DNA of 64,000 nt from an uncultured bacterium (GCA_964562805.1 CAZLUT010000001.1:32574-96573), one strand, 5' to 3'; shown: positions 2,075 through 53,265, counted from the stretch's first letter. Notes: generated from the sequence alone by a model not told the origin. Translations and numbers: made by a program.

Positions 2075-3133
2075 ATGAAGCGTTCTATAAGAGATCTGAC
2101 ATTAAAGGAGCTGGAAGGAGAGATAGTAAAACGAGGTTTTCCGAAATATCGGGCTAAACAGCTGGTTGATTGGATTTATAAAAAGCAAGTTGTTGCGGTG
2201 AGTGAAATTAAAAACCTTCCTAAGGAATTGTTGCGGTCGCTGGAAAAAGATTTTGTTTTTTCTTCTTTGAAATTAATCAAGATTCATACAGGCGCGGATA
2301 ATTCAAAAAAGTTTTTATTCCAAACCGAAACCGGAGAGCATTTAGAATCCGTTTATATTTATCAAGGCAGCAAAAGGCACGCCCTTTGTGTTTCAACTCA
2401 AATTGGCTGTAAAATGAAGTGTAAGTTTTGTGCGAGCGGGAAGATGGGCTGGAAGAGAAATCTGAGCGCGGGTGAAATCCTGGACCAAATTGCTAATGTG
2501 ATGCATGAATTAAAAGTGCCGCTCGATAATCTTGTTTATATGGGCATGGGTGAGCCGCTTGATAATCTGAATGCTGTTTTAAAATCAATCCGGATTTTGC
2601 GAGCCGATTGGGGTTTTCAGATGGGTTGGCGGCGCATCACCATCTCAACCTCAGGACTTGTCCCTGCTATCAAAAAATTTGCTGCGTCCGCATCAGGTGA
2701 AGTGAAGCTTGCTATTTCTCTTCATGGTACTACCGATGAGGAACGAAAAAAGATTATGCCAATCTCGAAAGTTTATTCTCTTGAGTCATTGATTCAGTGC
2801 CTTAAAGACGTAAAAAATAAATTTAAACGACAATTTATGTTTGAATATATTCTAATTAAAGGCCTTAATGATTCGATGGAAGATGCTAAGAGGCTCAGAA
2901 CCATCGCAAGAAGAGTTGACGCAAAGGTTAATTTGATTCCTTACAATAAGATAGAAGGTGAAAAATTTGAAAGACCCTCGATAGAAAGAATGAAAGAAAT
3001 TCAAAAATTTCTAACCGAATCCGGCATTACCACGATGCTGCGGTATAGCGCGGGGAGTGATATTGGAGCTGCGTGTGGGCAATTGAGACTAATTGAAGAA
3101 AAACACAAAACACAGAACACAAAACACAAATAA
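2075..3133 (+). CDS. rlmN: 23S rRNA (adenine2503-C2)-methyltransferase RlmN (radical SAM)
   Basis: CxxxCxxC radical-SAM motif CKMKCKFCASG, GMGEPLDN and C-terminal Cys region AACGQL. The last about 10 codons (KHKTQNTKHK) are read from the ACACAAA inverted repeat. Confidence 0.85.
   Translation: MKRSIRDLTLKELEGEIVKRGFPKYRAKQLVDWIYKKQVVAVSEIKNLPKELLRSLEKDFVFSSLKLIKIHTGADNSKKFLFQTETGEHLESVYIYQGSKRHALCVSTQIGCKMKCKFCASGKMGWKRNLSAGEILDQIANVMHELKVPLDNLVYMGMGEPLDNLNAVLKSIRILRADWGFQMGWRRITISTSGLVPAIKKFAASASGEVKLAISLHGTTDEERKKIMPISKVYSLESLIQCLKDVKNKFKRQFMFEYILIKGLNDSMEDAKRLRTIARRVDAKVNLIPYNKIEGEKFERPSIERMKEIQKFLTESGITTMLRYSAGSDIGAACGQLRLIEEKHKTQNTKHK
3099..3130. repeat. Inverted repeat, left arm (ACACAAA-unit repeat)
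   Basis: Perfect 32-nt reverse-complement match to 3548-3579. Confidence 0.8.
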
Positions 3134-3152
3134 AACACAAAACACAAACGTT

Positions 3153-3494
3153 TCAAAGACTCGACTTATCGATAATTGCGGAAAATATTCTTCTCAATTC
3201 TTTAGATTCGATAATTAAATTATCAAAGCTTTCTTTGTAATTGCTATTTGAATTTGATAACAGTTCTAACCAATAACTAGTTTCCTTACATTCTTTTCTA
3301 GTTATTCTCATTCGATGAATGAAGTCTTTCTTACTAACCGCGTCATTTGCCTCTCGGTAGTTAGCTCCCACAGACCCAGAAGAGCGAGTTAACTGGCGAA
3401 TTAGCTCGCTATTAATAGTGCTTTTTGGTATTTGTTGACAAGTGTTTAAGGTTTCTTTTGCAAAATTTAAAGTACGTTCTTCTAAAGCTCTCAT
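3153..3494 (-). CDS. Four-helix-bundle protein (TIGR02436-type, formerly 23S rRNA intervening-sequence protein)
   Basis: Characteristic 4HB/IVS-protein sequence (SGSVGANYREA, RKECKETSYWLELL). Start placed at the internal ATG (3492-3494) instead of the ORF-track start at 3545, which would overlap the neighbouring gene. Confidence 0.65.
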   Translation of the reverse strand: MRALEERTLNFAKETLNTCQQIPKSTINSELIRQLTRSSGSVGANYREANDAVSKKDFIHRMRITRKECKETSYWLELLSNSNSNYKESFDNLIIESKELRRIFSAIIDKSSL

Positions 3495-3499
3495 TGTGT

Positions 3500-5155
3500 T
3501 TATTGAAATCTTGTATTTGTTTGTGCTTTGTGGTTTGGATCCCATTGTTTGTGTTTTGTGTTCTGTGTTTTGTGTTTTTTGAAAAAATCAGCAATCGTTT
3601 CTTGATTCTTAATATTCTCCCCAAACCACCCCCCTGTCATTCCGTCTATTTGAGAGGTGAGCTCTTCGATTCTAAGCCAAGATTCGAGAAGCTTTTTTTG
3701 TTCATGCGTTTTAACCAAAACATCTATCTGAAGGCGTCTTCTTTCATAATAAAGCCGAGTCACTTCAGAGACTAATTCATCTCTAAGCTCTACCATCAAT
3801 TTTTCACGCGAATCAATGCTGGTTTGAGAAGAGGAAAAAAGAAGGTCGCCCAAATCCCAGCTCAAATCAATATCCATATCATAATTCCAATCTTCAGGAC
3901 CAACAATATAAAGATCAGGATCTCTCGTGCCGCCGCGGTCAAGGTCAATGTTGTTACCCCGATTATTACCGACCGAATAGGAAACGGAGGGCAGAAGAGA
4001 CTTCAATCTAGAGAAGATTTGCCAGCTCTTAGTTTTTCCATTGGGTGTATTGGAATAACGAATGGCGGCTTCCTGAACCTCTCTCGCTTTTGGTTCGCTC
4101 GCAATCAGTTGATTTAACAATTTAATCAAATTTGATCCATAATGAAGCTCTTGCCTGATGGGTAAGGGATTTTCAGGTAGAGGAAGAGTGATTTTAACGA
4201 TTCCATCATCGGAACTTACCCAGAGCAGGCGTTTGAAATAAATTAAATCATGTATTTTGCCAAGGCTTTTCTCGGTTTTAAGCCTTTTCCATTCAGAATC
4301 GGCAAATCGATATACTCCCTTTTGTGTTCCGGCTATTAGGCCGGGGGGTGTGGTGAGAAGCTGAGTAATGCTGTCTGTTCGTAAACCTGAAGAGGGAAGC
4401 TTATAAAAGTGAAGTCCGCCGGTTTTACTCCCATAAACTCCGCGACTGGTTCCAACCCACACATTTTTTCCATCAGGACTCACTTCAAACGTCGAAAAAC
4501 TGCCTAAATTTTTTGACTCACTGAATTCTGTGCGATCATTTAACAATTCTGTTTCTTTTGGAATCGCACCGAGTAATTTTTCAAAACTAAGACCGCCATC
4601 TCTTGTTTTCCATAAGCTTCTATCAGTGAGAACAAAATAAATTTTTTTTGAAAGAGTCTTGATAGAAAACGGGATTTCTCCCGAAGGGAAGTGATCATTT
4701 TTTTTGAAAACCAATTGGTTTAAGTTTGCCGAAAACAATCCTTTTGTTGTCCCAAGGAAAATTATTTCCTCTTTAATTTTAAAAGTTTCAAGCCTGCCTT
4801 TTGCCGGAGTGGAATTAAAAATTTGCTTCCAGCGGACACCTAAATCTTCGCTGAGGTAGAGGTGCTTATTTGTTAAAAGAAGCAAATTATTGCCAATAAA
4901 TCCAATTCGCCTCATTTCTTGAGTAGCGGGAAGGCTAAAGACCTGCTTATGAAAATTAGTATTTTGTCGTGCAAGATATAGGTTTTTTGGGCTTAAAATT
5001 GCCAATTCCCCATCTTTGATTGGGAGAAGCTGAAGATAATAAGGCTCCTTTGTTCCCCAAGGGATGGTGGGAAGTAGAGCATTTTCTTGAGCAAAAGCGG
5101 GGAGCATTAAGAGAAAAAGAAAGATGATAAGAGGAAAAATGAAGTTTTTAAGCAT
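3500..5155 (-). CDS. Secreted BNR/Asp-box repeat (Ycf48-like beta-propeller) protein with a C-terminal coiled-coil region
   Basis: N-terminal signal peptide MLKNFIFPLIIFLFLLMLPAFAQE; several SxDxGxxW/F Asp-box repeats (SEDLGVRW, TRDGGLSF, SPDGKNVW, SKTGGLHF); C-terminal tail KHKTQNTKHK is read from the inverted repeat. Confidence 0.5.
   Translation of the reverse strand: MLKNFIFPLIIFLFLLMLPAFAQENALLPTIPWGTKEPYYLQLLPIKDGELAILSPKNLYLARQNTNFHKQVFSLPATQEMRRIGFIGNNLLLLTNKHLYLSEDLGVRWKQIFNSTPAKGRLETFKIKEEIIFLGTTKGLFSANLNQLVFKKNDHFPSGEIPFSIKTLSKKIYFVLTDRSLWKTRDGGLSFEKLLGAIPKETELLNDRTEFSESKNLGSFSTFEVSPDGKNVWVGTSRGVYGSKTGGLHFYKLPSSGLRTDSITQLLTTPPGLIAGTQKGVYRFADSEWKRLKTEKSLGKIHDLIYFKRLLWVSSDDGIVKITLPLPENPLPIRQELHYGSNLIKLLNQLIASEPKAREVQEAAIRYSNTPNGKTKSWQIFSRLKSLLPSVSYSVGNNRGNNIDLDRGGTRDPDLYIVGPEDWNYDMDIDLSWDLGDLLFSSSQTSIDSREKLMVELRDELVSEVTRLYYERRRLQIDVLVKTHEQKKLLESWLRIEELTSQIDGMTGGWFGENIKNQETIADFFKKHKTQNTKHKQWDPNHKAQTNTRFQ
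3548..3579. repeat. Inverted repeat, right arm
   Basis: Perfect 32-nt reverse-complement match to 3099-3130. Confidence 0.8.
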
Positions 5156-5260: not shown

Positions 5261-5360
5261 TCCATCAGGTACTTTTTTACAGTTAAAACATATATATAGG
5301 AAATAGAATAATATATAAGGGAGGGAGATTCTTTTTTATAGGAAAAGAATTTTTTTGCTT

Positions 5361-8300
5361 ATGAGGTTTTTATCAAACAATAAAGCGAGCCGTGCGCTCA
5401 CTATCTATTTTCTTATTTTTTGTTTTCTAGCTACATCAAACGCTGTAGCCAACCCGGCTTTTATTCAAGAGGAAACAATTTCCCCCAAAAAACAAACAAC
5501 AAAGGAAGAATTTTTAAGTGAGCTTAAATTAGTTGAATCGGATTTAACACAAAGCAGAAAAAGAGGCGAAAAAGATATTTTAATTTCTGGATTGGTTGAA
5601 CGCTCGCGAAAAATTGTTGGTGCAAAGGCCGCTAGCCTTGGTGAGGTGACGCCTCCTGAAGAGATTCCGCTGCTACATCCCGCCAACCTAGAAGAAATAA
5701 AAGAGCGACTTGAAAAAGAGCTGGAAGGTTATTTGAAACCAACTTTTTCTATCGCGCCGGATATTCCAGAAACCATATGGCTAGGCCTGTACTCAGGACA
5801 TCTTAGAGCCGTTCTTAATGAATTGCTTAAGAATTCCCGGGAGGCAGGCGCCACGCAAGTAAATTTAAATTTTCAGATGATTGACGGCAAGCTTATCATC
5901 AAAGCCCAAGATAATGGCGAAGGAGTGTCTTATGAATCTTTAAAAAAAGCTTTGCTTAAGGCCGCCCAGGAAGAACGGGTTATTAGAAACGAAGATGGAA
6001 TTCTTGAAGTTCCTTTTCCCCGTATTGCGGATGCAAAGCAAATCTTAACCACGGAAGAAGTTTTGGAGTTTATTAAGGAAAATGAAAAGCTGCTTCCTTT
6101 TATCTCGGGCCTTTCCGTAAAAGGAAGTTTTCGTGGCATGGGCATCGCTGCGAGTTGGCAGATTATTAAGCGTCATGGCGGAACAATGGATTATACGACA
6201 GGTCCCGAAGGAACAACTTTTACCATCCAATCACCGGTTTCGGTTAAAGCCAAGAGCCTTGGGAGTGATTTTGTTATAGATTCAGGAAGATCGTATTCGT
6301 TTAAGGATGTTGAGATCGAACAAAGGCAATATCCGGTCTCTTCTCCCGCATCTGTTGTTTTTCCAACGGTCATATTAGAAATTAATAATAGAGCCTACGA
6401 AGTTGGTGGCGAGAATTTTCTAGTTATCACGCTTGCCAACGGAAAAAAGATTTATTGGGGTGGGCAGCACAACCTTTCTTATTCTTTCTTTTTTGAAAAT
6501 TTTAAAGAAAAGGCCGCTGAGCTTATTGAAGCCGGCGGTGTCCTTTGGTTTCATATTGATAATCATGTTGATCTTGGTTCGTACGAAGAGGCAAATAGAC
6601 GTAGTTTAGACACAGGTGTTTGGCAAAAAGAAATTGAGCATGGATATGCCCATCTTAGTTTTGCCAATTACATGGGTTATCTTTTACAGACTAAGGTGGT
6701 TTCTGATTTGCACCGAGCCAGTTCACTCGAAGAGATTGTTGAAGGAAAATGGGCCATCGATTCTCCTTCGGTTGTAGATTTTGATGTCGATGTAATTTTG
6801 GATAATACAGGGAAAACCCGCCTTGGTCTTTTGGAGAAGGCAAAGCTCTTATCAATTTTTAATCAAGCAGATGTTGTTTTTATGACCAATAGTTCGGAGC
6901 TGAGCGCATTTAATCTGGGTGTGCCTTTACATATTGATCCACATCTAGCCATTTCAACTAATGCGAAATTTATACAAGAACTTGCACTCCAATCTAGCTT
7001 GGTGGCAGGTAAGAGTTTGGGAAAAGAGGAAAAGAAAGAAATTTCTTTTAGTGAGATTAATTGGAATCCATTTCGAAAATATGGTGATTGGGCTGGTTTC
7101 TTCCGGGGGCGAACTATTAATCAAGAGCTAGATGATATACAAGAAAAAGCCATGGCGCACCTCACGATGATGTATGAAACGGCTCTCAAAGAAGCAAAGT
7201 CTTTCGAGATGGAGGAGTTGCTTGAAGTGGCAAAAGATTCTGCTCGAGCAAAGATTGAAGGAATGATAGCTGTCCGGCGAGAGGGGGCCCTGGAAAATCG
7301 GCTGATGGACTTTGTCTTAAGACTTAATGGTTCGGGTGTTACTTTACAAACAAGAGAATTAGTTAAAAATTATCTCAAAGATTTTTGGGATAAGGCATCA
7401 GGGGTTTTGAGTGGCCGCGAGGTTTTTGAGCTAGAGGCTCAAAATGCGATTAGGAAAGCGTCTCGTCTCAAAGTGTTTCGTCCTATCCGAACTATATTGG
7501 TTGCTGAAGATGAGGAAGTTTATTTAAAAGATTACAAGAAGGTATTTGAGCGGCTTGGGAGAGACGATATCGATGTGCTTTATTTTCCAACCAGAAAAAA
7601 AGCAATAACTCATTTAAAAACTTTTGGCAAAGAGGTGGATCTTATCTTCGCAGACCGCTCGATGGTAGATGAAGAGGAATATAAGGAAAGATTGGTAGCT
7701 GGTCTTCCTGCTGATGTGGATGATGGCGGGCTTCTTATTGAAGAAGTTAGGAATAAATTAAACCTAAAAACCCCTGTAGTTTTTGTGAGCGGGTCAAGAT
7801 ATGGCCAAAACGAACTAGATCAATTTGGAAATGCAACTCAATTTTCTAAAGCATATCTGAATCCAGAACATTTGGGACGACTCGTTCAGGAATTGATTAA
7901 AATTCTGCCCGAAATTCCTGAGCCTCCTGATGTCGAAGGACTTATGTCCGCTGATAAGATCAAAACGCATAATGATTATTTGCTAGACCTTTTATCTTTT
8001 CTTGGCTCCTTGGACCGCTCTGAAATAACTACAAAAATTAATGAAAATTTGTCACCAGCATCATGGCAGGCATGGGTAGCGCATGATTTTAAAACCCCAA
8101 TTGGCGTAATTCTGCAGAATGTGCAATTAATTGAAGATTACAAGAAAAGCGATGAAGCTGTACCAATTAAAAATATTAAAAGAATCATAGAAAATTATCA
8201 GAAAATAAAGGATGCGCTGACTGTTATAGACCGGGCGGGTGAACCTATTCGCCCTGAATATTTTGATCGGCTAACTCATACTGGTAGCAAGAAAGATCCT

Positions 8301-19500: not shown

Positions 19501-22500
19501 ATTCTCAAACCTATCCGTGCCCGGCGGCAAGAGTCTTATTAATTTGCTGAAGCAATTTGGAATTTATGAGGATGCTGATACCGGCATTCAGGTGAATGAC
19601 CTTCGCGTGAATGAAATTGTTACTAATGATGAAAAAATCAATCAAATTATCCGTAAAGAAGGCGAGTTTGCTTCCCGTGCGAAGAGCTTGGGAGAAGAAA
19701 CAAAAATTTTCGAAGATTGGCTGGAAATGTGGAGCGAGATTTATGAAAGAAAATTAACTATTAATTTTAAACCGCCTGAATTTGAAGAATCTGGATTTCT
19801 TACTTTAGAAAATAGGCTTGGTAAGATGGCCGCAGAAATTCAGTATCGTTATTCAGTTAGAGACCCGGTGGCTGGCGATCTAATAACAATAATTGATCAA
19901 AGCACAGCAACAGATTACCAGAGAAAGAGAATCATGACTTTGATGCATTTATTTTTATTAGATTATTACCCCAAAGTTCGAACTGTTGAATTTGATGGAC
20001 TTTCTGATCATGGTGAAAGTCTTGCGGAAACATTAAAGCAATTTGGAATTTATTATCCTATTGGCGATAAATTTCAAGTGGTTGGGCGTCGTTTGGATGA
20101 AATCGTTGCTTTTAACGAAAATATCAAACAAATCATCGCGAAAGAAGGTGAATTTGTTTCGCGCGGAAAAAGTTTGGGTAGAGGAATGGAGTTTGTCGAT
20201 CCTAAGTACCTCACCTTGAGCCCAGAATTAAGAAGAACAAAAGATTTTAATTTTAAACTTTTAAATGAATTATCTGAGACAGAGAGAGAAGAATTGATAC
20301 AGCTTATCATGGGATTTCTGGAGGTCAAAGGTAAGATCGGCAGAATAAAAGCCATGCGGCGATTAAGTAAATTTAAGGCCCCACGCTCCTTTGAGGTCGT
20401 GGCCTTCAAGAACAATGAAGCAGTTGGTTATACCAACGCTTATTTTACGGATCAAATTTTTATTCCTAGAGAAGTATATATTACTGATATTTATGTTAAA
20501 GAGGGCGAGGCTTATCGTAGACACCGTATTGGTACAAATCTTTTTAATATTACCAAAGAGCATGCAAGAAACATTGGAGCTCAGGAGCTTATAGTTAGCG
20601 GCATTAGACAAAAATCAGAAGCCCAAGATTTTTGGAAGAAAATAGCTGAACAAAATCCGGATACTAACATCCAATATTATGGGCCTTTAAAGAAGATTTC
20701 TCGGATCGGATTGGATTTAACAAGAAACCTCCCCTCGATACCGGATGCTGAAGGATTGCCGGCTTTTGAGAAAATCGGAGCTTATGTGAACTTTGTCATG
20801 AAATTAGTGTCTGCTATTGGGAAAATTGATCAGAAGCTAACTCTTTATTTTGAAGCGAGCCCCAAGCCGCTTCCCGAGGCATGGGTGGATTGGGCAGGAC
20901 ATACTGTAAAAGAAGATTTGAGCTCTGTAGCTACCTGGCATGATGGGTTTGATACCTTATATTCGGCCGCTGCAAGGAAGAAGGAATTTAAAGAAGATCC
21001 CCGTATTCTTAATTACGTAGACAAATATATTGATTCTTTTAAAAGTTATTTTGCCCCAATCAAGAGGCTAGCTAGGGGGCATCCTTCTGATTATACGGCT
21101 GGCCTTACAAAGAAGGGTGATGAGACAGAGCCGGTTGATCGCACGCAATTGGCACGCTATTTCGCAAGAGATCTTTTTATTAATCATCCTGATGCCGAAA
21201 GCAACTGGCAGTTTTTTCAAGCCGCGGTCAGCAGCGTTGATGAAACTCTCGTCAAATTAAAATCCGCAATCAAAGAACTTGAGGAGGAGGTAGGGGCAAG
21301 AAGCTTGGGCGAAGAGGGAGTTTTGTTTCCTTCCAAAGATTTTTCAAAATACGGGATATCCGAAACTGATTCACGTTTTAACGCTATGATGCGGCCGCAG
21401 CAGATCGCCTTTTTCATGCTAATGAAACGGATGCTTAATCTTCCACCGAGAAGCATGGGCATCTATGAAGCGTCTTTTTCTGATATTTCATCTTTGTTGC
21501 TTGCGACTAATTTAGATAATGTCATCATGGTGGACAGCACTTCTTTTCACGACCCATCAAAACGACCTGATTTTTGGAGAGATAAAAAAGATGGTTTTTT
21601 ATCAAATAAGAAAATTTTCGGCTTTCTCCCAACAGAATTTTTAAAACAATATGGTGTCTATGAGGACGTAGAGCATCCTCTTATGTGGGAACTTAGTGCT
21701 ATTGGAGCAACTAATATTCGCGTTAAAAAGTATCTTAATTATAAAAACGCGTATGTGATTAACTTTTATTGGGCATATCACAATGAGGCCCCTCGCCCTC
21801 GCAAGATAATATTTTTTGAAAATACAAATACTGCGGAAGAATCTAAAAATAGGGACCTTTTATATAAGTTTTATGGCTACTATAAGGATAAAGTGAAGGT
21901 AGCTTTTTACAGAAATTCAGAAGCAATCGCGACTTCATTTCCGTTAACAGAAGCTAAAGCGCACTTTCAAAAATTGCGAGAGATATTCCCTGGCAACACT
22001 TTATTTGTGTCTAACTTTGATTTTGCCTCTTATTACGACGGCTACAAAAACAATAATCTTTTTATGGGACCAACCCCAAGGGAAAACCTGACTTCCGTTC
22101 GAGGCTTTTTAAAAGAGTTTGATGTGCAATATGGTCTGGACCCTGAGAGGGACCCTGAAGAGCTGTATATCAGCACACCGCGTTTAATAGTTGGCCAAAG
22201 CCTTGGAGAAGAGGAGATAGTTCAGCGAGTAATGTCTAATATCGGAGAATCCGAAGAGCCTTTTTACGGCATGCTTCCCGCGTCACTTCTTGAGGAATTG
22301 GCTGAAAGCGAAGGTAAGGACGTTCTAAAACAGCAGATGGAATATTTGATCGGAAACAAGGCGAATCATATTGTTATTCTGTGGGATACAGATATTCCGC
22401 GCTTTGAAAGAAATGAGTGGCTGGATAAATTGGGACTTGGTGCGCTTGGTAGCAAAAAGAATTTTATCACAACTCCTCTAAAAGCAAAGATAGATGAAAA

Positions 22501-22813
22501 GGCGCTTCAGGATCAAATAAAAGAAACTCTAAAAATATTGCTTTCAAGAGGCGTTGAAACTCGTGCAATTGGGCTGCTAAAACCATTTGATGAGCAATTT
22601 AAAGTTGATGCCCATTCATTAAAATCCAAATCACCGCAAGCGCTTCTTCTCCTGCATTACTTAGTGCAGATTGACGGTGATCTTGCGCAAGATCTGTTAA
22701 GAATCTTTTCGATTGATCCCAAGACAGGGGATTATCTGGCAGAACTCTCGAATCATCTCGAACGCCTCTTCCAAGAAGCCCGCGCTGCAGAAGCGGTGCG
22801 TAAAGCAGCGTAG
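13583..22813 (+). CDS. Giant secreted multi-module protein 2 (3076 aa), a mosaic paralogue of protein 1. Contains a receiver-like domain, a GNAT domain, two internal tandem duplications, twelve KSLG-type linkers and a conserved C-terminal module
   Basis: - The ATG overlaps the upstream stop (TAATG at 13581-13585).
- Signal peptide ...LIFCFLTTTIAVASP.
- REC-like domain 17690-18040.
- GNAT motif YRRHRIGTNLF around 20500.
- The C-terminal approximately 200 aa align with the C-terminus of protein 1 (…LHYL[IV]QIDGDL[SA]QDLLRIF…DPKTGD[FY][IL]AEL). Confidence 0.8.
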   Translation: MLSVVSKYKTFLAFIIYPLIFCFLTTTIAVASPISQIKTDTISAEKQTQERDFLEEIRQVAEELAESKEREEEIVSIGEIVEKVRGSEDQRIKAMRKEAIDRTRKVLEVTGKSWVAPSLPAVAGTEHRELSVTGKSLGRTKRHALISQAARDMPSFMKDRAKMVQRLYESIDSEEAKRILLRPDVLPVFLGIKSAYLTYDRDPLIGPLSEKVSEASEEFHDLGLVFSERYVISIDYLFDRFEKEGDFLVKEKIISKDELESFIKSGPTQETMNSIDGLLDQYHGDVPGRTILHGFLMGYPLREIIFAARSEKTWEGFVSEYGLHVVSPGTERINRLLSGWDIGTHFGYLTLSNEPDFEEMMEPSALRVFKTIEGKSLGTDEILVKLKSARRINENAREYGEMTYQEAIEVMKSLPDGLWRVEDKGELLNIFNVILATLDKAEETIFEAGGASLFYIHCTSRLEEVLGRLPQEDREAKRLELLDLVNTYINPVGEISQKAAALIKAVEGSTDRYPSSFDEPDASYDELLPKLISLVKSIHPNEDSRLDPYNIKIKALETIDAIVHSGFISDFREIIKFLLAELKKIDDPRNIRTSLVEAIAGVLISILYKQNNLKYEYGGIDQATNVNWALRRTLGAEGGRGTISLFEAFGSFGDVNKIVKRLSQNFEKATTQKQKEKALKAAVKEIDAYGEFLQNEYEISRVLDLLEFGFDKKLSKDQKLNKALHKISNVKSFREALKDLLDSVTLPDKLSNLGTGLFKVLSSIIQDFTEKALLTDDSKELKTILRNTIQKMEEYQNFLAAKVAREEGLEEEAEGKKRAPPEEEIFRAEAKSMGAAYLMVAIKSEPALAIKENFEIVLEEIHDASPRSAREALEAIPFFIKANPKLATKEVLKNILNRLFLGYWDDEPLKPDSSVYLITPNIFILRSFYAADRKLFNNELFEIVKKSADDSNKDAVDMALPFFASNMFGIDIDFETLRPLELAISEIFALIGKEVFVSEESTKHLESILISLSEQLAVTEDEVERGKIILDTFNKMLELQEFMKLQKARARGTLRAEDEKKEVSEDEIFRETPSLSAEAGAMRPAPRVTGKSLGAAYLIDAIKSEPSLAVEANFKKVLKEIQNPEHKEARKALRAIPFFIKANPKLATKKALRNILMKLFWGYWFYGKPSAVDQPIYLVKPNLYVLRSFYEADRKLFDDELYEIVKKIAHDTQRDIEDVVAAVLPFFISSMFGIDIDFETFKHLERAISQTLEILGNEVFVSEESTRHLRSIIISFSEQLAAIEDEAEQEQIVLDTFGKVLELQDFLKAKKERAKGLELGVEGKERTPPEDEIFREAPRAEAKSLGMEDEIIKVIQEALHVKIERHIRTKLIAEDDEDIQKIYKRAFEQLARDDITVLYFPHRRAAINYLRDYGDEVDLIFADRAMDDRDEIDERIKERLPLDIDDGTLLVKQARSRLNLNIPVIFISSTIYNQDELDQFGNATQLPKQYLDATTLEHLIQKLIQILPELPEPPSVEELTPAERMQAHIQYLRELFEFLGPLKKSTIKVIKKKALQSTTWYSWLSHGFQNELLSIEISMRRARARKERGQTISSDTLRNLKESYEKMERSFVIVDRLTRPYRPEYLAMLTETGSEASPIPHPKLPLYFSKAVFEDHPNEANNRKIFQATAPIIDSTLKKLGEAVDEYVREAGGAPGVTAASLGGIADIISPEEAAPLRMELEEGLIDDKARLNYPIQQILLHQDIQQKNKEIAWLIKVRADHFPILSQHVDELIRFVNDNPDWMPSNGLELLIFRLFAGHSYSDLNRESLAAFDEALPPVVRLLRNFDIKNLVKRGVTTDREIYPLKVSSYFINDASEIRKLGKTAQDIIKRAEAKSLGEETQIFEDWLKAWGDVYGEKLAINFEPAPLGGLGFFGLKDEAGEKVAGIFYSYLNENLIKIGLQSTADNYRRKRLMTLVHLFLLNYHPKVTAVEFSNLSVPGGKSLINLLKQFGIYEDADTGIQVNDLRVNEIVTNDEKINQIIRKEGEFASRAKSLGEETKIFEDWLEMWSEIYERKLTINFKPPEFEESGFLTLENRLGKMAAEIQYRYSVRDPVAGDLITIIDQSTATDYQRKRIMTLMHLFLLDYYPKVRTVEFDGLSDHGESLAETLKQFGIYYPIGDKFQVVGRRLDEIVAFNENIKQIIAKEGEFVSRGKSLGRGMEFVDPKYLTLSPELRRTKDFNFKLLNELSETEREELIQLIMGFLEVKGKIGRIKAMRRLSKFKAPRSFEVVAFKNNEAVGYTNAYFTDQIFIPREVYITDIYVKEGEAYRRHRIGTNLFNITKEHARNIGAQELIVSGIRQKSEAQDFWKKIAEQNPDTNIQYYGPLKKISRIGLDLTRNLPSIPDAEGLPAFEKIGAYVNFVMKLVSAIGKIDQKLTLYFEASPKPLPEAWVDWAGHTVKEDLSSVATWHDGFDTLYSAAARKKEFKEDPRILNYVDKYIDSFKSYFAPIKRLARGHPSDYTAGLTKKGDETEPVDRTQLARYFARDLFINHPDAESNWQFFQAAVSSVDETLVKLKSAIKELEEEVGARSLGEEGVLFPSKDFSKYGISETDSRFNAMMRPQQIAFFMLMKRMLNLPPRSMGIYEASFSDISSLLLATNLDNVIMVDSTSFHDPSKRPDFWRDKKDGFLSNKKIFGFLPTEFLKQYGVYEDVEHPLMWELSAIGATNIRVKKYLNYKNAYVINFYWAYHNEAPRPRKIIFFENTNTAEESKNRDLLYKFYGYYKDKVKVAFYRNSEAIATSFPLTEAKAHFQKLREIFPGNTLFVSNFDFASYYDGYKNNNLFMGPTPRENLTSVRGFLKEFDVQYGLDPERDPEELYISTPRLIVGQSLGEEEIVQRVMSNIGESEEPFYGMLPASLLEELAESEGKDVLKQQMEYLIGNKANHIVILWDTDIPRFERNEWLDKLGLGALGSKKNFITTPLKAKIDEKALQDQIKETLKILLSRGVETRAIGLLKPFDEQFKVDAHSLKSKSPQALLLLHYLVQIDGDLAQDLLRIFSIDPKTGDYLAELSNHLERLFQEARAAEAVRKAA
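16064..17620 (+). repeat. Intragenic tandem duplication in giant gene 2 (two units of about 780 nt, each about 260 aa; roughly 65-70% aa identity by eye)
   Basis: Unit 1 at 16064-16843 (AEAKSMGAAYLMVAIKSEPALA...IPFFIKANPKLATK...FGIDIDFET...) parallels unit 2 at 16844-17620 (VTGKSLGAAYLIDAIKSEPSLA...IPFFIKANPKLATK...FGIDIDFET...). Confidence 0.8.
19199..20164 (+). repeat. Second intragenic tandem duplication in giant gene 2 (two units of about 160 aa)
   Basis: 19199-19678 (AEAKSLGEETQIFEDWLKAW...YRRKRLMTLVHLFLLNYHPKV...LKQFGIY...) parallels 19679-20164 (RAKSLGEETKIFEDWLEMW...YQRKRIMTLMHLFLLDYYPKV...LKQFGIY...). Confidence 0.8.
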
Positions 22814-22827
22814 GCGCTATACGATCG

Positions 22828-22990
22828 GAATACACAAATCCCAATACACAAACTACAAGCAAATTAAAATACAGAAATTAAAAATTCGAAACAGAGAGGA
22901 ATTTTTGTAAAGACTTTTACGGTTTTAAATTTCTTATTTGTTTATTTTAATTTGTTTGTAATTTGGAATTTGTATATTGGAATTTGTTTA
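22828..22990. repeat. Long imperfect inverted repeat (arms about 55 nt, AC-rich ATACACAAA units) between the giant-gene stop and ychF
   Basis: Left arm 22828-22885 (ATACACAAATCCCAATACACAAACTACAAGCAAATTAAAATACAGAAATTAAAAA) pairs approximately with the reverse complement of 22925-22990 (ACAAATTCCAATATACAAATTCCAAATTACAAACAAATTAAAATAAACAAATAAG). Confidence 0.45.
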
Positions 22991-26010: not shown

Positions 26011-26427
26011 ATGAAAGTTCAAATCTATACAGATGGCGGGGCTCGCGGCAATCCGGGACCTGCGGCTTGGGGCTATCTTATTGTAGGGCCAAAAGGTGAA
26101 CTCGACCGGAGGGCGGGTTTTATTGGGGCCAACACCAATAATGTAGCCGAATATACCGGGATTATAGAAGCCTTCCAGAGAGCTAGGGAGCTTAAAGTAA
26201 ACGAGGTAGATCTTTTTACCGATAGCCAGCTTGCTTGCCGGCAGCTGTTGGGTGAATATAGGGTAAAACAGCCTCATTTAAAGCTTTTGTTTGAAAAAGT
26301 ACGTATTTTAGCGACTCATTTTAATAAAGTGACATATGCGCACGTTCCGAGGGAAAACGCTAATATACAAATCGCGGACGGACTGGTTAATGAAGCGCTA
26401 GATGAACAAACGGGGGGTATGGTCTAA
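26011..26427 (+). CDS. rnhA: Ribonuclease H (type 1) family protein
   Basis: YTDGG...TNNVAEY...LFTDSQL...ADGL spacing matches the RNase HI DEDD catalytic residues. Confidence 0.65.
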   Translation: MKVQIYTDGGARGNPGPAAWGYLIVGPKGELDRRAGFIGANTNNVAEYTGIIEAFQRARELKVNEVDLFTDSQLACRQLLGEYRVKQPHLKLLFEKVRILATHFNKVTYAHVPRENANIQIADGLVNEALDEQTGGMV

Positions 26428-26459
26428 GTTCTCAGATCTTAGATCTAAAATCTATTTTT

Positions 26460-35107: not shown

Positions 35108-36205
35108 GTGAATCCAAAAACTTATAACGCAACTTTTATTACCGGGGATGGAACCGGTCCCGAAATCGCCGAGGTCACACAGAAGTGTCTGGATGCGACA
35201 GGAGTTCAATTTAATTGGGATATTCAAACGGCGGGCATTGATATTATGGAAGCCGAAGGCACTCCGCTTCCGGATCGGGTCCTGGAATCAATCCGAAAAA
35301 GCCATGTAGCGATTAAAGCTCCTATTACAACGCCCATTGGAAAAGGTTTTAGATCGGTGAATGTGGCTTTAAGAAAAGAGCTGGATTTATACGCTTGCCT
35401 CAGACCTTGTAAAAGTTATCCGGGAGTAAGATCTCATTATGAAGGCATCGATTTGGTAGTGGTCCGGGAAAACACCGAAGATTTGTATGCCGGGGTTGAA
35501 TTTAAAAAAGATGCCCAGGAAACCAAAGAAATTATTGCTGAAATTGATAAGCGTTCTAAAAGTAAAAAATTACGGCCCGATTCAGGTATTAGCATCAAAC
35601 CTATTTCTGTTTCCGGTACTGAGCGCATTGTTAAATTCGCGTTTGATTATGCCCAGAAAAATAACCGTAAGAAAGTAACGGCTGTTACCAAAGCTAATAT
35701 TATGAAGCATACGGACGGCCTTTTTTATGATGTGGCAAGAGAAGTCGCCAAGAAATATACCGATATCGAATATAGCGAAGTGCTCGTTGACAATATGTGC
35801 ATGCAGCTCGTTCAAAAGCCGGAACTTTATGATGTGCTTGTGCTGCCTAATCTTTACGGAGATATCATTTCAGATCTTTGTGCGGGGCTAGTCGGCGGTT
35901 TAGGAGTTGCTCCGGGAGGGAACATTGGTGATAAAGGCGCTGTTTTTGAAGCAACTCATGGTTCGGCTCCAAAATATAAAGGTCTTAACAAAGTGAATCC
36001 GACAGCCTTAATCCTTTCGGGAGTTATGATGCTGAGGTATCTCGGAGAAATGCAAGCAGCCGAGAGGCTCGAGAGTTCAGTGGCGGAAGTTATTAAAGAA
36101 GGCATCAATGTCACTTACGATTTAAGACCCGACCGCGGAGCGGATGGTAAGGCCGTGGGAACCCGAGAAATGGGTGAGGCGATTATAAAAAAGCTTAGAG
36201 CCTAG
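35108..36205 (+). CDS. icd: Isocitrate/isopropylmalate dehydrogenase family enzyme, probably NAD(P)-isocitrate dehydrogenase; GTG start
   Basis: Family signature [27 protein letters not shown]; sits next to mdh. Confidence 0.7.
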
Positions 36206-36232
36206 AGCTAAGAGCTGAGAGAGGAGAGACGG

Positions 36233-53192: not shown

Positions 53193-53260
53193 TAGTTAGT
53201 GGATAGAATATGTATACTAGGGACCTATTACTAAATACTAATGACTAAATACTAACGACT
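53175..53260. repeat. Intergenic repeat family copy F
   Basis: AGTGAATAGTGGTTAGTAGTTAGTGGATAG followed by a degenerate inverted counterpart CTATTACTAAATACTAATGACTAAATACTAACGACTAA. Confidence 0.6.
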
Positions 53261-53265
53261 AATTT

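What the first reader, a model, noticed from the sequence alone, without database searches (positions are those of the whole stretch)
3099..3579. A four-helix-bundle (23S-rRNA-IVS-type) gene sits inside a cassette bounded by 32-nt perfect inverted repeats, outside any rRNA gene
aaaaacacaaaacacagaacacaaaacacaaa at 3099-3130 is the exact reverse complement of 3548-3579, and the similarity continues imperfectly for about 20 more nt on each side. The 417-nt interior holds only the 114-codon TIGR02436-type gene (3153-3494, minus strand). Genes of this family were first found inside intervening sequences of 23S rRNA. There the flanking inverted repeats form the long stem that RNase III removes. Here the same architecture sits between rlmN and a convergent secreted-protein gene. 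In the transcript the arms would make a stem of about 32-50 bp, a textbook RNase III substrate. The unit could be an IVS-like mobile cassette that inserts by its inverted termini, or a self-contained processing element. A solo arm of the same repeat at 59186-59245, and a long degenerate palindrome of the same AC-rich flavour at 22828-22990, suggest the repeat exists independently of its cargo gene. These could be footprints or empty sites.
Basis: partly seen in the sequence, partly recalled or inferred. Interest (0 to 1): 0.6.

Follow-up and report, generated by a model that had tools for sequence, protein, structure and literature searches.

The report
Repeat-flanked four-helix-bundle gene cassette
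A small gene of the kind first found inside ribosomal-RNA "intervening sequences" sits here between two ordinary genes, bracketed by perfectly mirrored 7-base repeats, and the same gene-plus-mirrored-repeat unit recurs in many bacterial phyla and is gained or lost as a block.

Summary
Arms 3099-3133 and 3545-3579 are 34/35 complementary, 32 of them perfect, with 0 matches expected by chance. Each arm is about 4.5 tandem AACACAA heptamers. They enclose one PF05635/TIGR02436 gene (3153-3494, minus strand).

The arms overlap the 3' coding ends of rlmN and of a 551-aa secreted-protein gene. Both proteins therefore end in the arm-encoded tail KHKTQNTKHK.

A syntenic relative (L089) has no element, and its two genes overlap. 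Another relative (L087) has a diverged 4HB element with different heptamers in the equivalent position, just after the 551-aa gene's homologue.

The architecture is family-wide:
- 64 of 80 homologous loci from many phyla have flanking inverted arms with 7-nt periodicity. Cyanobacterial plasmid copies do too.
- Units measure 450-670 nt.
- When the two neighbouring genes share an orientation, the gene matches it in 44 of 45 cases.
- None of the loci lies in rRNA.
- A gene-blind search for inverted heptamer pairs returned only PF05635 genes (8 of 8).
- Nostoc plasmids show presence/absence alleles whose boundaries are the outer arm ends.
- The palindrome at 22828-22990 is an ORF-less relative.

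Best reading: an intervening-sequence-like cassette living in mRNA operons. Its arms would form an RNase III-type stem in read-through transcripts. Neither the processing nor the insertion mechanism has been tested. I found no paper describing this association.

The parts
3545..3579 (-). 5' arm of the cassette on the coding (minus) strand. It reads AAAAACACAAAACACAGAACACAAAACACAAACAA, about 4.5 AACACAA-type heptamers, A/C-only apart from one G. It also encodes residues ...KKHKTQNTKHK of the 551-aa neighbour.
3516..3544 (-). Inner, imperfect continuation of the 5' arm. Positions 3519-3532 form a 14-bp second helix with 3136-3149. An alternative ATG lies at 3545-3543.
   Evidence: Fold; repeats I2/I3; ORF list.
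3153..3494 (-). Four-helix-bundle protein gene (113 aa; PF05635 / TIGR02436; related to PDB 2RLD). No Shine-Dalgarno-like motif precedes either candidate ATG.
   Evidence: The identical protein with the same arrangement is on 6 metagenome contigs.
3134..3149 (-). Inner continuation of the 3' arm (AACACAAAACACAAAC on the plus strand), which pairs with 3519-3532.
   Evidence: (I4).
3099..3133 (-). 3' arm of the cassette (U/G-rich in the sense transcript). On the plus strand it is the last 11 codons and the stop codon of rlmN (EEKHKTQNTKHK*).
2075..3133 (+). rlmN (radical SAM 23S rRNA/tRNA methyltransferase). Its native C-terminus is replaced by an arm-encoded tail. The relative L089 ends ...CGQLRLIHEKGKTS*, while the window ends ...CGQLRLIEEKHKTQNTKHK*.
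3500..5155 (-). 551-aa secreted BNR/Sortilin-like protein gene, co-oriented with the cassette gene and immediately upstream of it. Its last ~27 codons are cassette sequence. Homologues are 533-535 aa and lose similarity at that point.
22828..22990 (.). ORF-less hairpin of the same repeat class: ~65-nt CAA-type arm, ~29-nt loop, TTG-type arm. It lies between the 3076-aa gene and the ychF-like gene and is probably a gene-less derivative of a second cassette.
   Evidence: It gives 159 short matches to arms of 4HB elements in other genomes, against 18-69 for shuffles.
59170..59237 (.). Solo heptamer tract (TGTGTTT/TGTGCTT type, close to the cassette arm) next to a terminator-like hairpin between convergent genes. 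No partner arm is nearby.

Best explanation
This is an intervening-sequence-like gene cassette that lives in mRNA operons instead of rRNA. The unit is 5' arm, four-helix-bundle (4HB) ORF, 3' arm. The arms are short tandem heptamer arrays in inverted orientation, and the ORF nearly fills the loop.

Shown:
- The unit is gained and lost as a block.
- It recurs with the same anatomy and size in many phyla.
- It almost always points the same way as the flanking genes.
- It begins within a few nucleotides of the upstream gene's stop codon.

Inferred:
- It has no promoter of its own and is transcribed by read-through, here from the 551-aa gene.
- In that transcript the A/C-only 5' arm cannot fold on itself. 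It stays free until the U/G-rich 3' arm is made ~400 nt later, and the two then zip into a 32+14 bp duplex.
- A duplex of that length is a canonical RNase III substrate, as demonstrated for the homologous rRNA elements.
- Cleavage would release a ~430-nt RNA carrying the ORF with a short unstructured CA-rich leader, and would separate the flanking cistrons.

Speculative: the pentameric, Avd-like 4HB protein acts on the heptamer arms (RNA or DNA) and contributes to the unit's maintenance, spread or arm homogenisation.

In this window the cassette landed in the overlapping 3' ends of two convergent genes. That is why both now read into the arms.
For: Local anatomy:
- Perfect 32-nt inverted repeat, 0 expected by chance.
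- Fold of -130 kcal/mol, z = -6.3.
- A PF05635/TIGR02436 gene inside.
- No promoter or terminator signal above chance.

Empty and occupied relatives:
- L089 keeps the synteny (551-like gene, then convergent rlmN, ABC2, ABC) but has no element. Its two genes overlap by 81 nt.
- L087 carries a 47%-identical 4HB gene with AAAYTCT-type arms immediately downstream of the 551-aa gene's homologue.

Family-wide evidence:
- 64 of 80 GTDB loci have flanking inverted repeats (SW score at least 36; displaced controls mostly 13-25, rarely more).
- Unit length is 449-667 nt.
- The ORF starts roughly 25 nt (by eye) after the 5' arm and stops roughly 10 nt (by eye) before the 3' arm.
- The upstream neighbour is co-oriented in 54 of 62 loci.
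- When both neighbours share an orientation, the 4HB gene matches it in 44 of 45 cases.
- Lag-7 autocorrelation is 0.44 in both flanks against 0.26 in controls.
- Same-locus arm complementarity (median 45) exceeds cross-locus (median 30).
- Annotated cyanobacterial plasmid copies have perfect 30-32 nt heptamer inverted repeats with quite different units.
- Nostoc occupied and empty alleles differ exactly from outer arm end to outer arm end.
- A gene-blind scan for inverted heptamer pairs found 8 of 8 enclosing PF05635 genes, including two distant paralogues not used in the search.
- Heptamer tracts are about 9 times denser beside 4HB genes than elsewhere in the same loci.
- Arm k-mer similarity tracks protein identity.

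Precedent: ORF-bearing 23S intervening sequences are 428-444 nt with a 28-bp terminal stem cut mid-stem by RNase III, and have a poor SD (PMC4990558).
Against: - There is no RNA data, so stem formation and RNase III cleavage are inferred.
- Transition mismatches between arms show no bias towards G.U over A.C in the sense transcript (125 vs 124). The pairing constraint therefore cannot be assigned to RNA rather than DNA.
- Many arms are only 75-85% complementary.
- In this window, cleavage in the stem would remove the stop codons of both rlmN and the 551-aa gene. That looks costly, unless translating ribosomes keep the stem open.
- Co-orientation with operons is also expected from simple selection against antisense insertions.
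- Two cyanobacterial copies lie antisense between cas2 and cas1.
- The A/C-then-U/G polarity holds for this subfamily but not for the cyanobacterial copies.
- The Coxiella homologue is apparently not translated, and its RNA is short-lived.
Confidence: 0.55

Rival explanations
1. DNA-level mobile element. The arms are terminal inverted repeats recognised by a recombinase or transposase supplied in trans (MITE-like), and the 4HB gene is cargo or an accessory factor.
For: - Presence/absence alleles have boundaries at the outer arm ends.
- 55-68% identical proteins occur in Omnitrophota, Patescibacteria, DPANN archaea, Desulfobacterota and others.
- A gene-less hairpin derivative lies in the same window.
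- Arms are co-inherited with the gene over short distances.
Against: - No target-site duplication is visible at the window, L087 or Nostoc junctions.
- The Nostoc 'empty' alleles carry about 190 nt of unrelated sequence, so the difference is a replacement rather than a clean insertion.
- Arm ends are fuzzy, of variable length and low complexity, without conserved terminal bases.
- There is no second copy of the 32-mer in the window.
- There are no relatives on IMG/VR viral contigs.
- The 44:1 orientation bias is not a property of cut-and-paste elements.
Confidence: 0.2
2. The heptamer arrays are binding sites for the encoded 4HB protein itself, serving autoregulation, RNA packaging or array maintenance. 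The inverted symmetry would reflect protein binding, not RNase III processing.
For: - Strict 7-nt periodicity on both sides.
- About 4 units per arm in the best-preserved copies.
- An exclusive association between inverted heptamer pairs and PF05635 genes.
- Family members such as Avd are nucleic-acid- and RT-binding pentamers (PMC10053308; from established knowledge).
- An unidentified heptamer-binding partner has been postulated in Nostoc (bioRxiv 10.1101/2022.06.06.494920).
Against: - Heptamer sequences differ completely between elements whose proteins keep the same invariant residues.
- Arm similarity decays much faster than protein similarity.
- There is no binding data.
- This reading is not exclusive of the RNA-stem model.
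Confidence: 0.15
3. The long-range stem is simply a bidirectional terminator or insulator for the convergent genes rlmN and the 551-aa gene.
For: No conventional intrinsic terminator lies between the two genes. Both arms end in a U-run in the respective transcripts (sequence).
Against: - A 411-nt loop is not an intrinsic terminator.
- The related empty site manages without it.
- In most loci the element sits between co-directional genes, where termination would be polar.
Confidence: 0.05
4. Chance or neutral slippage: two microsatellites that happen to face each other, with no function.
For: - The host genome is rich in heptamer tracts: 7 in 64 kb, against 0 in 50 kb of E. coli and 0 in 60 simulated windows at a stricter threshold that finds 4 tracts in the real window.
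- The AACACAR motif is a common microsatellite elsewhere.
Against: - The arms are 32/32 identical, including the single G-containing unit in the same register.
- The arrangement recurs in 64 of 80 loci plus the plasmid loci.
- All 8 gene-blind inverted heptamer pairs enclose the same gene family.
Confidence: 0.03
5. The gene is the Avd accessory subunit of a diversity-generating retroelement.
For: The protein family includes Avd (PF22296 bAvd weak hits for paralogues; PMC10053308).
Against: The genes called within 6 kb either side of the cassette are an ABC transporter, rlmN, the BNR-like protein, a giant HATPase_c protein, GT9 and two without Pfam hits. None carries a reverse-transcriptase domain. 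No template/variable repeat pair appeared among the repeats found within 2800-3900.
Confidence: 0.02

Closest known systems
ORF-bearing intervening sequences (IVS) of 23S rRNA genes (Leptospira, Coxiella burnetii, Brucella, Xanthomonas), as described in PMC4990558 and the Ralph & McClelland 1993 paper cited there
   Same: - Same protein superfamily in the loop (S23p / PF05635 / TIGR02436).
- Same size class: 481 nt here, 428-444 nt in Coxiella.
- Terminal inverted repeats giving a ~30-bp stem (32+14 bp here, 28 bp there).
- Similar predicted stability (-130 vs -143 kcal/mol).
- No good Shine-Dalgarno sequence.
- Patchy, horizontally transferred distribution.
   Different: - It is not in an rRNA gene. 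It sits between, and partly inside, protein-coding genes.
- Its arms are tandem heptamers.
- The protein falls far below the cutoffs of NF008911/NF008912 (PRK12275; 29.5 and 26.1 bits against 137 and 124). My recollection, not checked here, is that these are the IVS-type subfamilies.
- RNase III excision is proven for the rRNA elements and only inferred here.
- Whether the rRNA IVS arms are also heptamer-built could not be checked.
Short tandemly repeated repetitive (STRR) sequences and other heptanucleotide simple-sequence repeats of cyanobacteria, Xanthomonas, Beggiatoaceae and Bacteroidota (PMC4692102, PMC4679880; Mazel 1990, from memory)
   Same: - 7-nt unit, intergenic location and rapid length and sequence turnover.
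- Frequent convergent pairs (70-75 inverted pairs reported in Xanthomonas).
- The Planktothrix copy (L212) is flanked by CCCCAAT-type units, which I recall as the STRR1 consensus.
   Different: Those papers treat the repeats as regulatory or structural SSRs. In the texts I searched they do not connect them with four-helix-bundle genes. Here the repeats come as matched inverted arms around one specific gene family.
MITEs / small non-autonomous transposons and REP/BIME-type palindromic elements
   Same: - Short inverted-repeat-bounded units in intergenic DNA.
- Presence/absence polymorphism.
- A gene-less hairpin version (22828-22990).
   Different: - No target-site duplication, no conserved termini and no cognate transposase.
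- Arms are low-complexity arrays that differ between copies.
- The full element carries a conserved non-transposase ORF and shows strong orientation bias.
Avd of diversity-generating retroelements
   Same: Homologous four-helix-bundle fold and family.
   Different: No reverse transcriptase and no template/variable repeats are present. Avd genes are not described as bracketed by heptamer inverted repeats.

Membership tests
23S rRNA intervening sequence (IVS) | Inserted in a 23S (or 16S) rRNA gene, at the tip of helix 9, 25 or 45 | tested here: not met
   No Rfam family, including rRNA, is found anywhere in the 64-kb window. The flanks are rlmN and a secreted-protein gene.
23S rRNA intervening sequence (IVS) | Terminal inverted repeats that form a long stem closing the element | tested here: met
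   32-bp perfect helix plus a 14-bp helix; fold z = -6.3.
23S rRNA intervening sequence (IVS) | Excision from the precursor RNA by RNase III | not testable with these tools
   No transcript data are available. The stem length satisfies the known substrate requirement of about two helical turns of dsRNA (established knowledge).
23S rRNA intervening sequence (IVS) | ORF of the S23p / four-helix-bundle family (for the long IVS class) | tested here: met
   PF05635 at 7.4e-19; TIGR02436 at 85.7 bits against a cutoff of 24; PDB 2RLD at 3.4e-15. It is below the cutoffs of PRK12275-type models NF008911/NF008912.
TIGR02436 / PF05635 four-helix-bundle protein family | Whole-protein score above the curated cutoff, ~110-125 aa, conserved helix-2/helix-3 motifs | tested here: met
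   There are 26 invariant columns among 25 cross-phylum homologues.
Transposon / MITE | Target-site duplication flanking the terminal inverted repeats | tested here: not met
   No direct repeat is visible at the window junctions or at the Nostoc occupied-versus-empty junctions.
Transposon / MITE | Multiple near-identical copies in one genome, or a cognate transposase | tested here: inconclusive
N. flagelliforme carries a 98.6% identical copy, flanks included, on a second plasmid, which looks like a segmental duplication. No transposase is encoded in the unit.
Diversity-generating retroelement (Avd) | Adjacent reverse transcriptase and a TR/VR repeat pair | tested here: not met
   The genes called within 6 kb either side of the cassette are an ABC transporter, rlmN, the BNR-like protein, the giant HATPase_c protein, GT9 and two without Pfam hits. 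None carries a reverse-transcriptase domain. No template/variable repeat pair appeared among the repeats found within 2800-3900.
Intrinsic (Rho-independent) terminator | Short GC-rich hairpin with a small loop followed by a U-tract | tested here: not met
   0 terminator-like sites in 2700-4000. The loop of the stem is 411 nt.

The most novel reading that the evidence does not exclude
Four-helix-bundle genes and inverted heptanucleotide arrays form one widespread, previously unrecognised class of selfish cassette. The classical rRNA intervening sequences would be only the subset of this class that landed in rRNA.

In this reading the 4HB protein is the missing factor that binds, homogenises or even generates heptanucleotide repeats. 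That would explain why heptamer SSRs (cyanobacterial STRR, Xanthomonas GGGAATC, Beggiatoa TAACTGA) are enriched in the same lineages that carry many TIGR02436 genes.
Probability: 0.2. Interest if true: 0.85.

Novelty: new variant of a known kind. Interest (0 to 1): 0.68.

Why it matters
Three old loose ends meet here:
- The function of the S23p/four-helix-bundle proteins, unknown since they were found in rRNA intervening sequences in 1993. The family has about 7,800 clusters at 50% identity.
- The origin of rRNA intervening sequences.
- The origin and role of bacterial heptanucleotide repeats, which have been known for decades.

If the gene-plus-inverted-heptamer unit is one element, rRNA intervening sequences become a special case of an operon-dwelling cassette.

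The idea can be tested directly in cultured cyanobacteria that carry perfect copies (Nostoc flagelliforme, N. punctiforme, Dolichospermum). It also matters for annotation. In this window the arms silently rewrite the C-termini of both neighbouring proteins.

Tried and rejected
- **Metagenome scan.** I scanned with AACACARAACACARAACACAR to find further copies of the arm in the same organism. None had a 4HB gene or an inverted partner.
- **G.U versus A.C mismatch asymmetry.** This was meant to tell RNA-level from DNA-level pairing. The counts were 125 vs 124, so it is uninformative.
- **Telomere-like polarity.** The 5' C/A-rich, 3' T/G-rich pattern holds for this subfamily. Cyanobacterial copies with TAATTCG, GTCGGAG and ATGAAGG units contradict it, so I dropped it as a general rule.
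- **Arms derived from the local target.** The rlmN tail of the empty site (GGCAAAACCAG) resembles CACAAAACACAG. However, the same heptamer types recur across phyla and arm similarity tracks protein identity, so this idea is not supported.
- **PADLOC, PHROGs and IMG/VR.** No defence-family hits, no phage-family hits and no viral-contig relatives.
- **Literature.** No paper linking 4HB/S23p genes with heptamer inverted repeats turned up. The library is open-access only, and the 1993 PNAS paper is not held.
- **Classical rRNA IVS arms.** I could not obtain a classical rRNA IVS sequence to test whether its arms are heptamer-built.


Full report
**1. The observation**

Arms 3099-3133 and 3545-3579 are 35 nt long, 34/35 complementary (32 perfect) and 411 nt apart. 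The 32-mer occurs once on each strand, against 0.00 expected in shuffles.

The arms are tandem heptamers: AACACAA AACACAG AACACAA AACACAA, followed by a degenerate continuation. Folding 3080-3600 as RNA gives a 32-bp helix, an internal loop and a second 14-bp helix (3136-3149 with 3519-3532). The energy is -130.2 kcal/mol with z = -6.3.

The only conserved ORF inside is 3153-3494 on the minus strand (113 aa). It matches PF05635 (7.4e-19), TIGR02436 (85.7 bits against a cutoff of 24) and PDB 2RLD. The window contains no rRNA, tRNA or other Rfam family.

**2. Local context**

The cassette is not simply intergenic. rlmN (2075-3133) ends with EEKHKTQNTKHK*, which the left arm encodes. The convergent 551-aa BNR/Sortilin-like gene (5155-3500) reads through the right arm, giving ...KKHKTQNTKHK..., and stops 5 nt before the cassette's ATG. 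An A/C-only strand cannot contain a stop codon, so any ORF entering an arm is extended.

The 4HB gene is co-oriented with the 551-aa gene and directly downstream of it. Neither candidate ATG has an SD-like motif. Promoter- and terminator-like sites are at chance level.

The window comes from a marine metagenome contig, Ga0115649_1001107. Six contigs from several samples carry the identical arrangement. Homologues of the 551-aa protein place the host among Omnitrophota-like bacteria.

**3. Relatives with and without the element**

- **L089.** The 551-like protein is 47-49% identical. The locus keeps the gene order (551-like, then convergent rlmN, ABC2, ABC) but has no 4HB gene and no inverted repeat. 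The two convergent genes overlap by 81 nt, and RlmN ends ...CGQLRLIHEKGKTS*. The window's C-terminal tails are therefore cassette sequence, and the insertion split two overlapping gene ends.
- **L087.** The 551-like protein is 54% identical. A 4HB gene follows it immediately, flanked by a 42-nt inverted repeat built from different heptamers (AAAYTCT).
- That 4HB protein is only 47% identical to the window's. Proteins from other phyla reach 64-68%. This argues for replacement or independent acquisition rather than plain vertical descent.

**4. The architecture is a property of the family**

The closest homologues are 55-68% identical. They come from Omnitrophota, Patescibacteria, Aenigmarchaeota, Chloroflexota, WOR-3, Desulfobacterota, Nitrospirota, Planctomycetota and Gammaproteobacteria. 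In 80 loci from GTDB species representatives I found the following.

- No locus contains conserved rRNA motifs.
- Both flanks show 7-nt periodicity. Autocorrelation at lags 7, 14 and 21 is 0.44, 0.40 and 0.36, against 0.26 in controls.
- The upstream flank is A/C-rich and the downstream flank is T/G-rich.
- 64 of 80 loci have a flanking inverted repeat with SW score at least 36. Displaced controls score mostly 13-25 and rarely more.
- Arm-to-arm length is 449-667 nt. By eye, the ORF starts about 25 nt after the 5' arm and stops about 10 nt before the 3' arm.
- The upstream gene's stop codon usually lies within about -14 to +30 nt of the arm start.
- The upstream neighbour is co-oriented in 54 of 62 loci.
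- When both neighbours share an orientation, the 4HB gene agrees in 44 of 45 cases.
- Same-locus arm complementarity (median 45) exceeds cross-locus (median 30), which in turn exceeds the displaced same-locus controls (mostly 13-25).
- Arm k-mer similarity tracks protein identity. Spearman correlation is 0.26 with 0 of 500 permutations reaching it. Cosine similarity is 0.60 for pairs above 80% identity and 0.15-0.2 below 55%.

The arms therefore travel with the gene but turn over faster than it, while staying mirrored within each unit.

**5. Specificity**

Heptamer tracts are 0.91 per kb within 160 nt of 4HB genes and 0.105 per kb elsewhere in the same loci.

I then scanned for inverted heptamer-tract pairs 250-700 nt apart without using any gene information. 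The scan found 8 distinct pairs. Six enclosed the known gene. The other two (L010 6686-7176 and L032 2093-2611) enclosed distant paralogues scoring 130 and 100 bits on PF05635.

**6. Cultured organisms**

More distant homologues (35-43% identity) on annotated cyanobacterial, Bacteroidota and Chloroflexota plasmids show the same design, often perfectly preserved.

| Locus | Host | Heptamer unit | Inverted repeat |
|---|---|---|---|
| L213 | Dolichospermum | TAATTCG | 31/31 |
| L217 | Nostoc flagelliforme | TAATTCG | 32/32 |
| L218 | Nostoc flagelliforme | AATTCAA | 30/30 |
| L210 | N. punctiforme | GTCGGAG | present |
| L212 | Planktothrix | CCCCAAT/CGTAAAT (STRR-like) | present |
| L219 | Gloeocapsa | TTTTAGA | present |
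| L220 | Chlorohelix | ATGAAGG | present |

Many of these copies sit inside helicase-methylase, DUF1156-HEPN or cas operons.

Using L217 with its flanks as a DNA query, three plasmids carry the full unit. Six or more related Nostoc plasmids match both flanks at 84-91% identity but lack the unit. In the four-way alignment, the difference begins and ends exactly at the outer ends of the heptamer arms. The unoccupied alleles hold about 190 nt of unrelated sequence, and no target-site duplication is visible.

**7. Other members in the window**

The palindrome at 22828-22990 folds into a ~65-bp imperfect hairpin without an ORF (z = -3.7). It gives 159 short matches to the loci, against 18-69 for shuffles. 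The best matches fall on the arms of 4HB elements in L007, L014, L016, L029 and L043. I read it as a gene-less derivative, analogous to the short ORF-less rRNA intervening sequences.

The tract at about 59170-59237 is a solo array of near-identical heptamers beside a terminator-like hairpin.

The window as a whole has 7 heptamer tracts. That compares with none in 50 kb of E. coli and none in 60 simulated windows at a stricter threshold that finds 4 tracts in the real window.

**8. Mechanism**

Shown: the unit is a block that is gained and lost. It is compact, points with the operon and is closed by mirrored arms.

Inferred:
- It is transcribed by read-through.
- The A/C-only 5' arm cannot self-pair and waits for the U/G-rich 3' arm.
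- The resulting duplex of 30 bp or more is an RNase III substrate, as proven for the homologous rRNA elements. The Coxiella element has a 28-bp stem cut mid-stem, measures 428-444 nt and has a poor SD.

Not resolved:
- Whether the pairing constraint acts on RNA or on DNA. The G.U versus A.C test was 125:124.
- How the unit moves.
- What the protein does.

In this window, cleavage would remove the stop codons of both neighbours. That is a cost, and the model has to absorb it.

**9. Comparison with known systems and novelty**

The closest known thing is the ORF-bearing 23S rRNA intervening sequence. Three of its features are met (stem, size, ORF family). The defining one, location in rRNA, is not met. 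So the cassette works like an IVS but is not one.

It differs from MITEs (no duplication, no conserved termini) and from DGR Avd (no RT). Heptamer SSRs and STRR are known, but in five full-text searches I found no paper connecting them with four-helix-bundle genes. The library is open-access only, so an older description cannot be excluded.

I rate it a new variant of a known kind, with interest 0.68.

Noticed in passing
window 26418-26455, 36190-36232, 53227-53263, 62397-62449: Short spacers between co-directional genes consist of 4-5 tandem heptamers (TCTAAGT-, TAGAGCY-, ACTAAAT- and GGTGATA-type). Most units carry a stop codon, so three such units put stops in all three frames. Some units also resemble Shine-Dalgarno sequences. 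The window has 7 such tracts, against 0 in 50 kb of E. coli and 0 in 60 simulations at a stricter threshold.
   Followed up: partly
window 5355-13583 and 13583-22813: Two adjacent giant ORFs (2742 and 3076 aa). At least the first (the only one whose translation I read) carries a recurring 'GKSLGE' peptide motif. There are only weak HATPase_c / methyltransferase hits. Giant genes fit an Omnitrophota-like host.
   Followed up: no
window 3099-3133 and 3500-3579: Both neighbouring proteins (RlmN and the 551-aa secreted protein) end in the same arm-encoded peptide KHKTQNTKHK, because their native stop codons were displaced by the cassette. Gene callers annotate these tails as genuine protein sequence.
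   Followed up: yes
L211 1483-1830 (Anabaena cylindrica pANACY.01) and L214 689-1045 (Nostoc sp. TCL26-01): A four-helix-bundle gene with AGTAAAA-type heptamer arrays lies antisense between cas2 and cas1. This is an exception to the co-orientation rule. Other plasmid copies sit inside helicase-methylase and DUF1156-HEPN operons.
   Followed up: partly
L008 about 3890-3976: In a Patescibacteria genome the cassette's 5' arm starts about 30 nt after what looks like the 3' end of a tRNA gene (GGTTCAAATCC T-arm motif; not checked with ARAGORN).
   Followed up: no
L010 6686-7176 and L032 2093-2611: These are second, distantly related PF05635 genes of the canonical ANIAEG type in the same loci. Each has its own, different inverted heptamer arms (AGTCAGG-type and AACAGTT-type).
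   Followed up: yes
L087 3550-4014: The syntenic relative's cassette follows the same upstream gene, but its protein is only 47% identical and its heptamers differ. Proteins from other phyla are 64-68% identical to the window's protein. This suggests repeated acquisition or replacement at one site.
   Followed up: partly
Nostoc and Tolypothrix/Calothrix/Microchaete plasmids (hits H50-H55): TAATTCG-type heptamer arrays identical to the L217 arms occur at up to 10 places per plasmid without a 4HB gene. Arm-type arrays therefore also exist independently in cyanobacteria.
   Followed up: no
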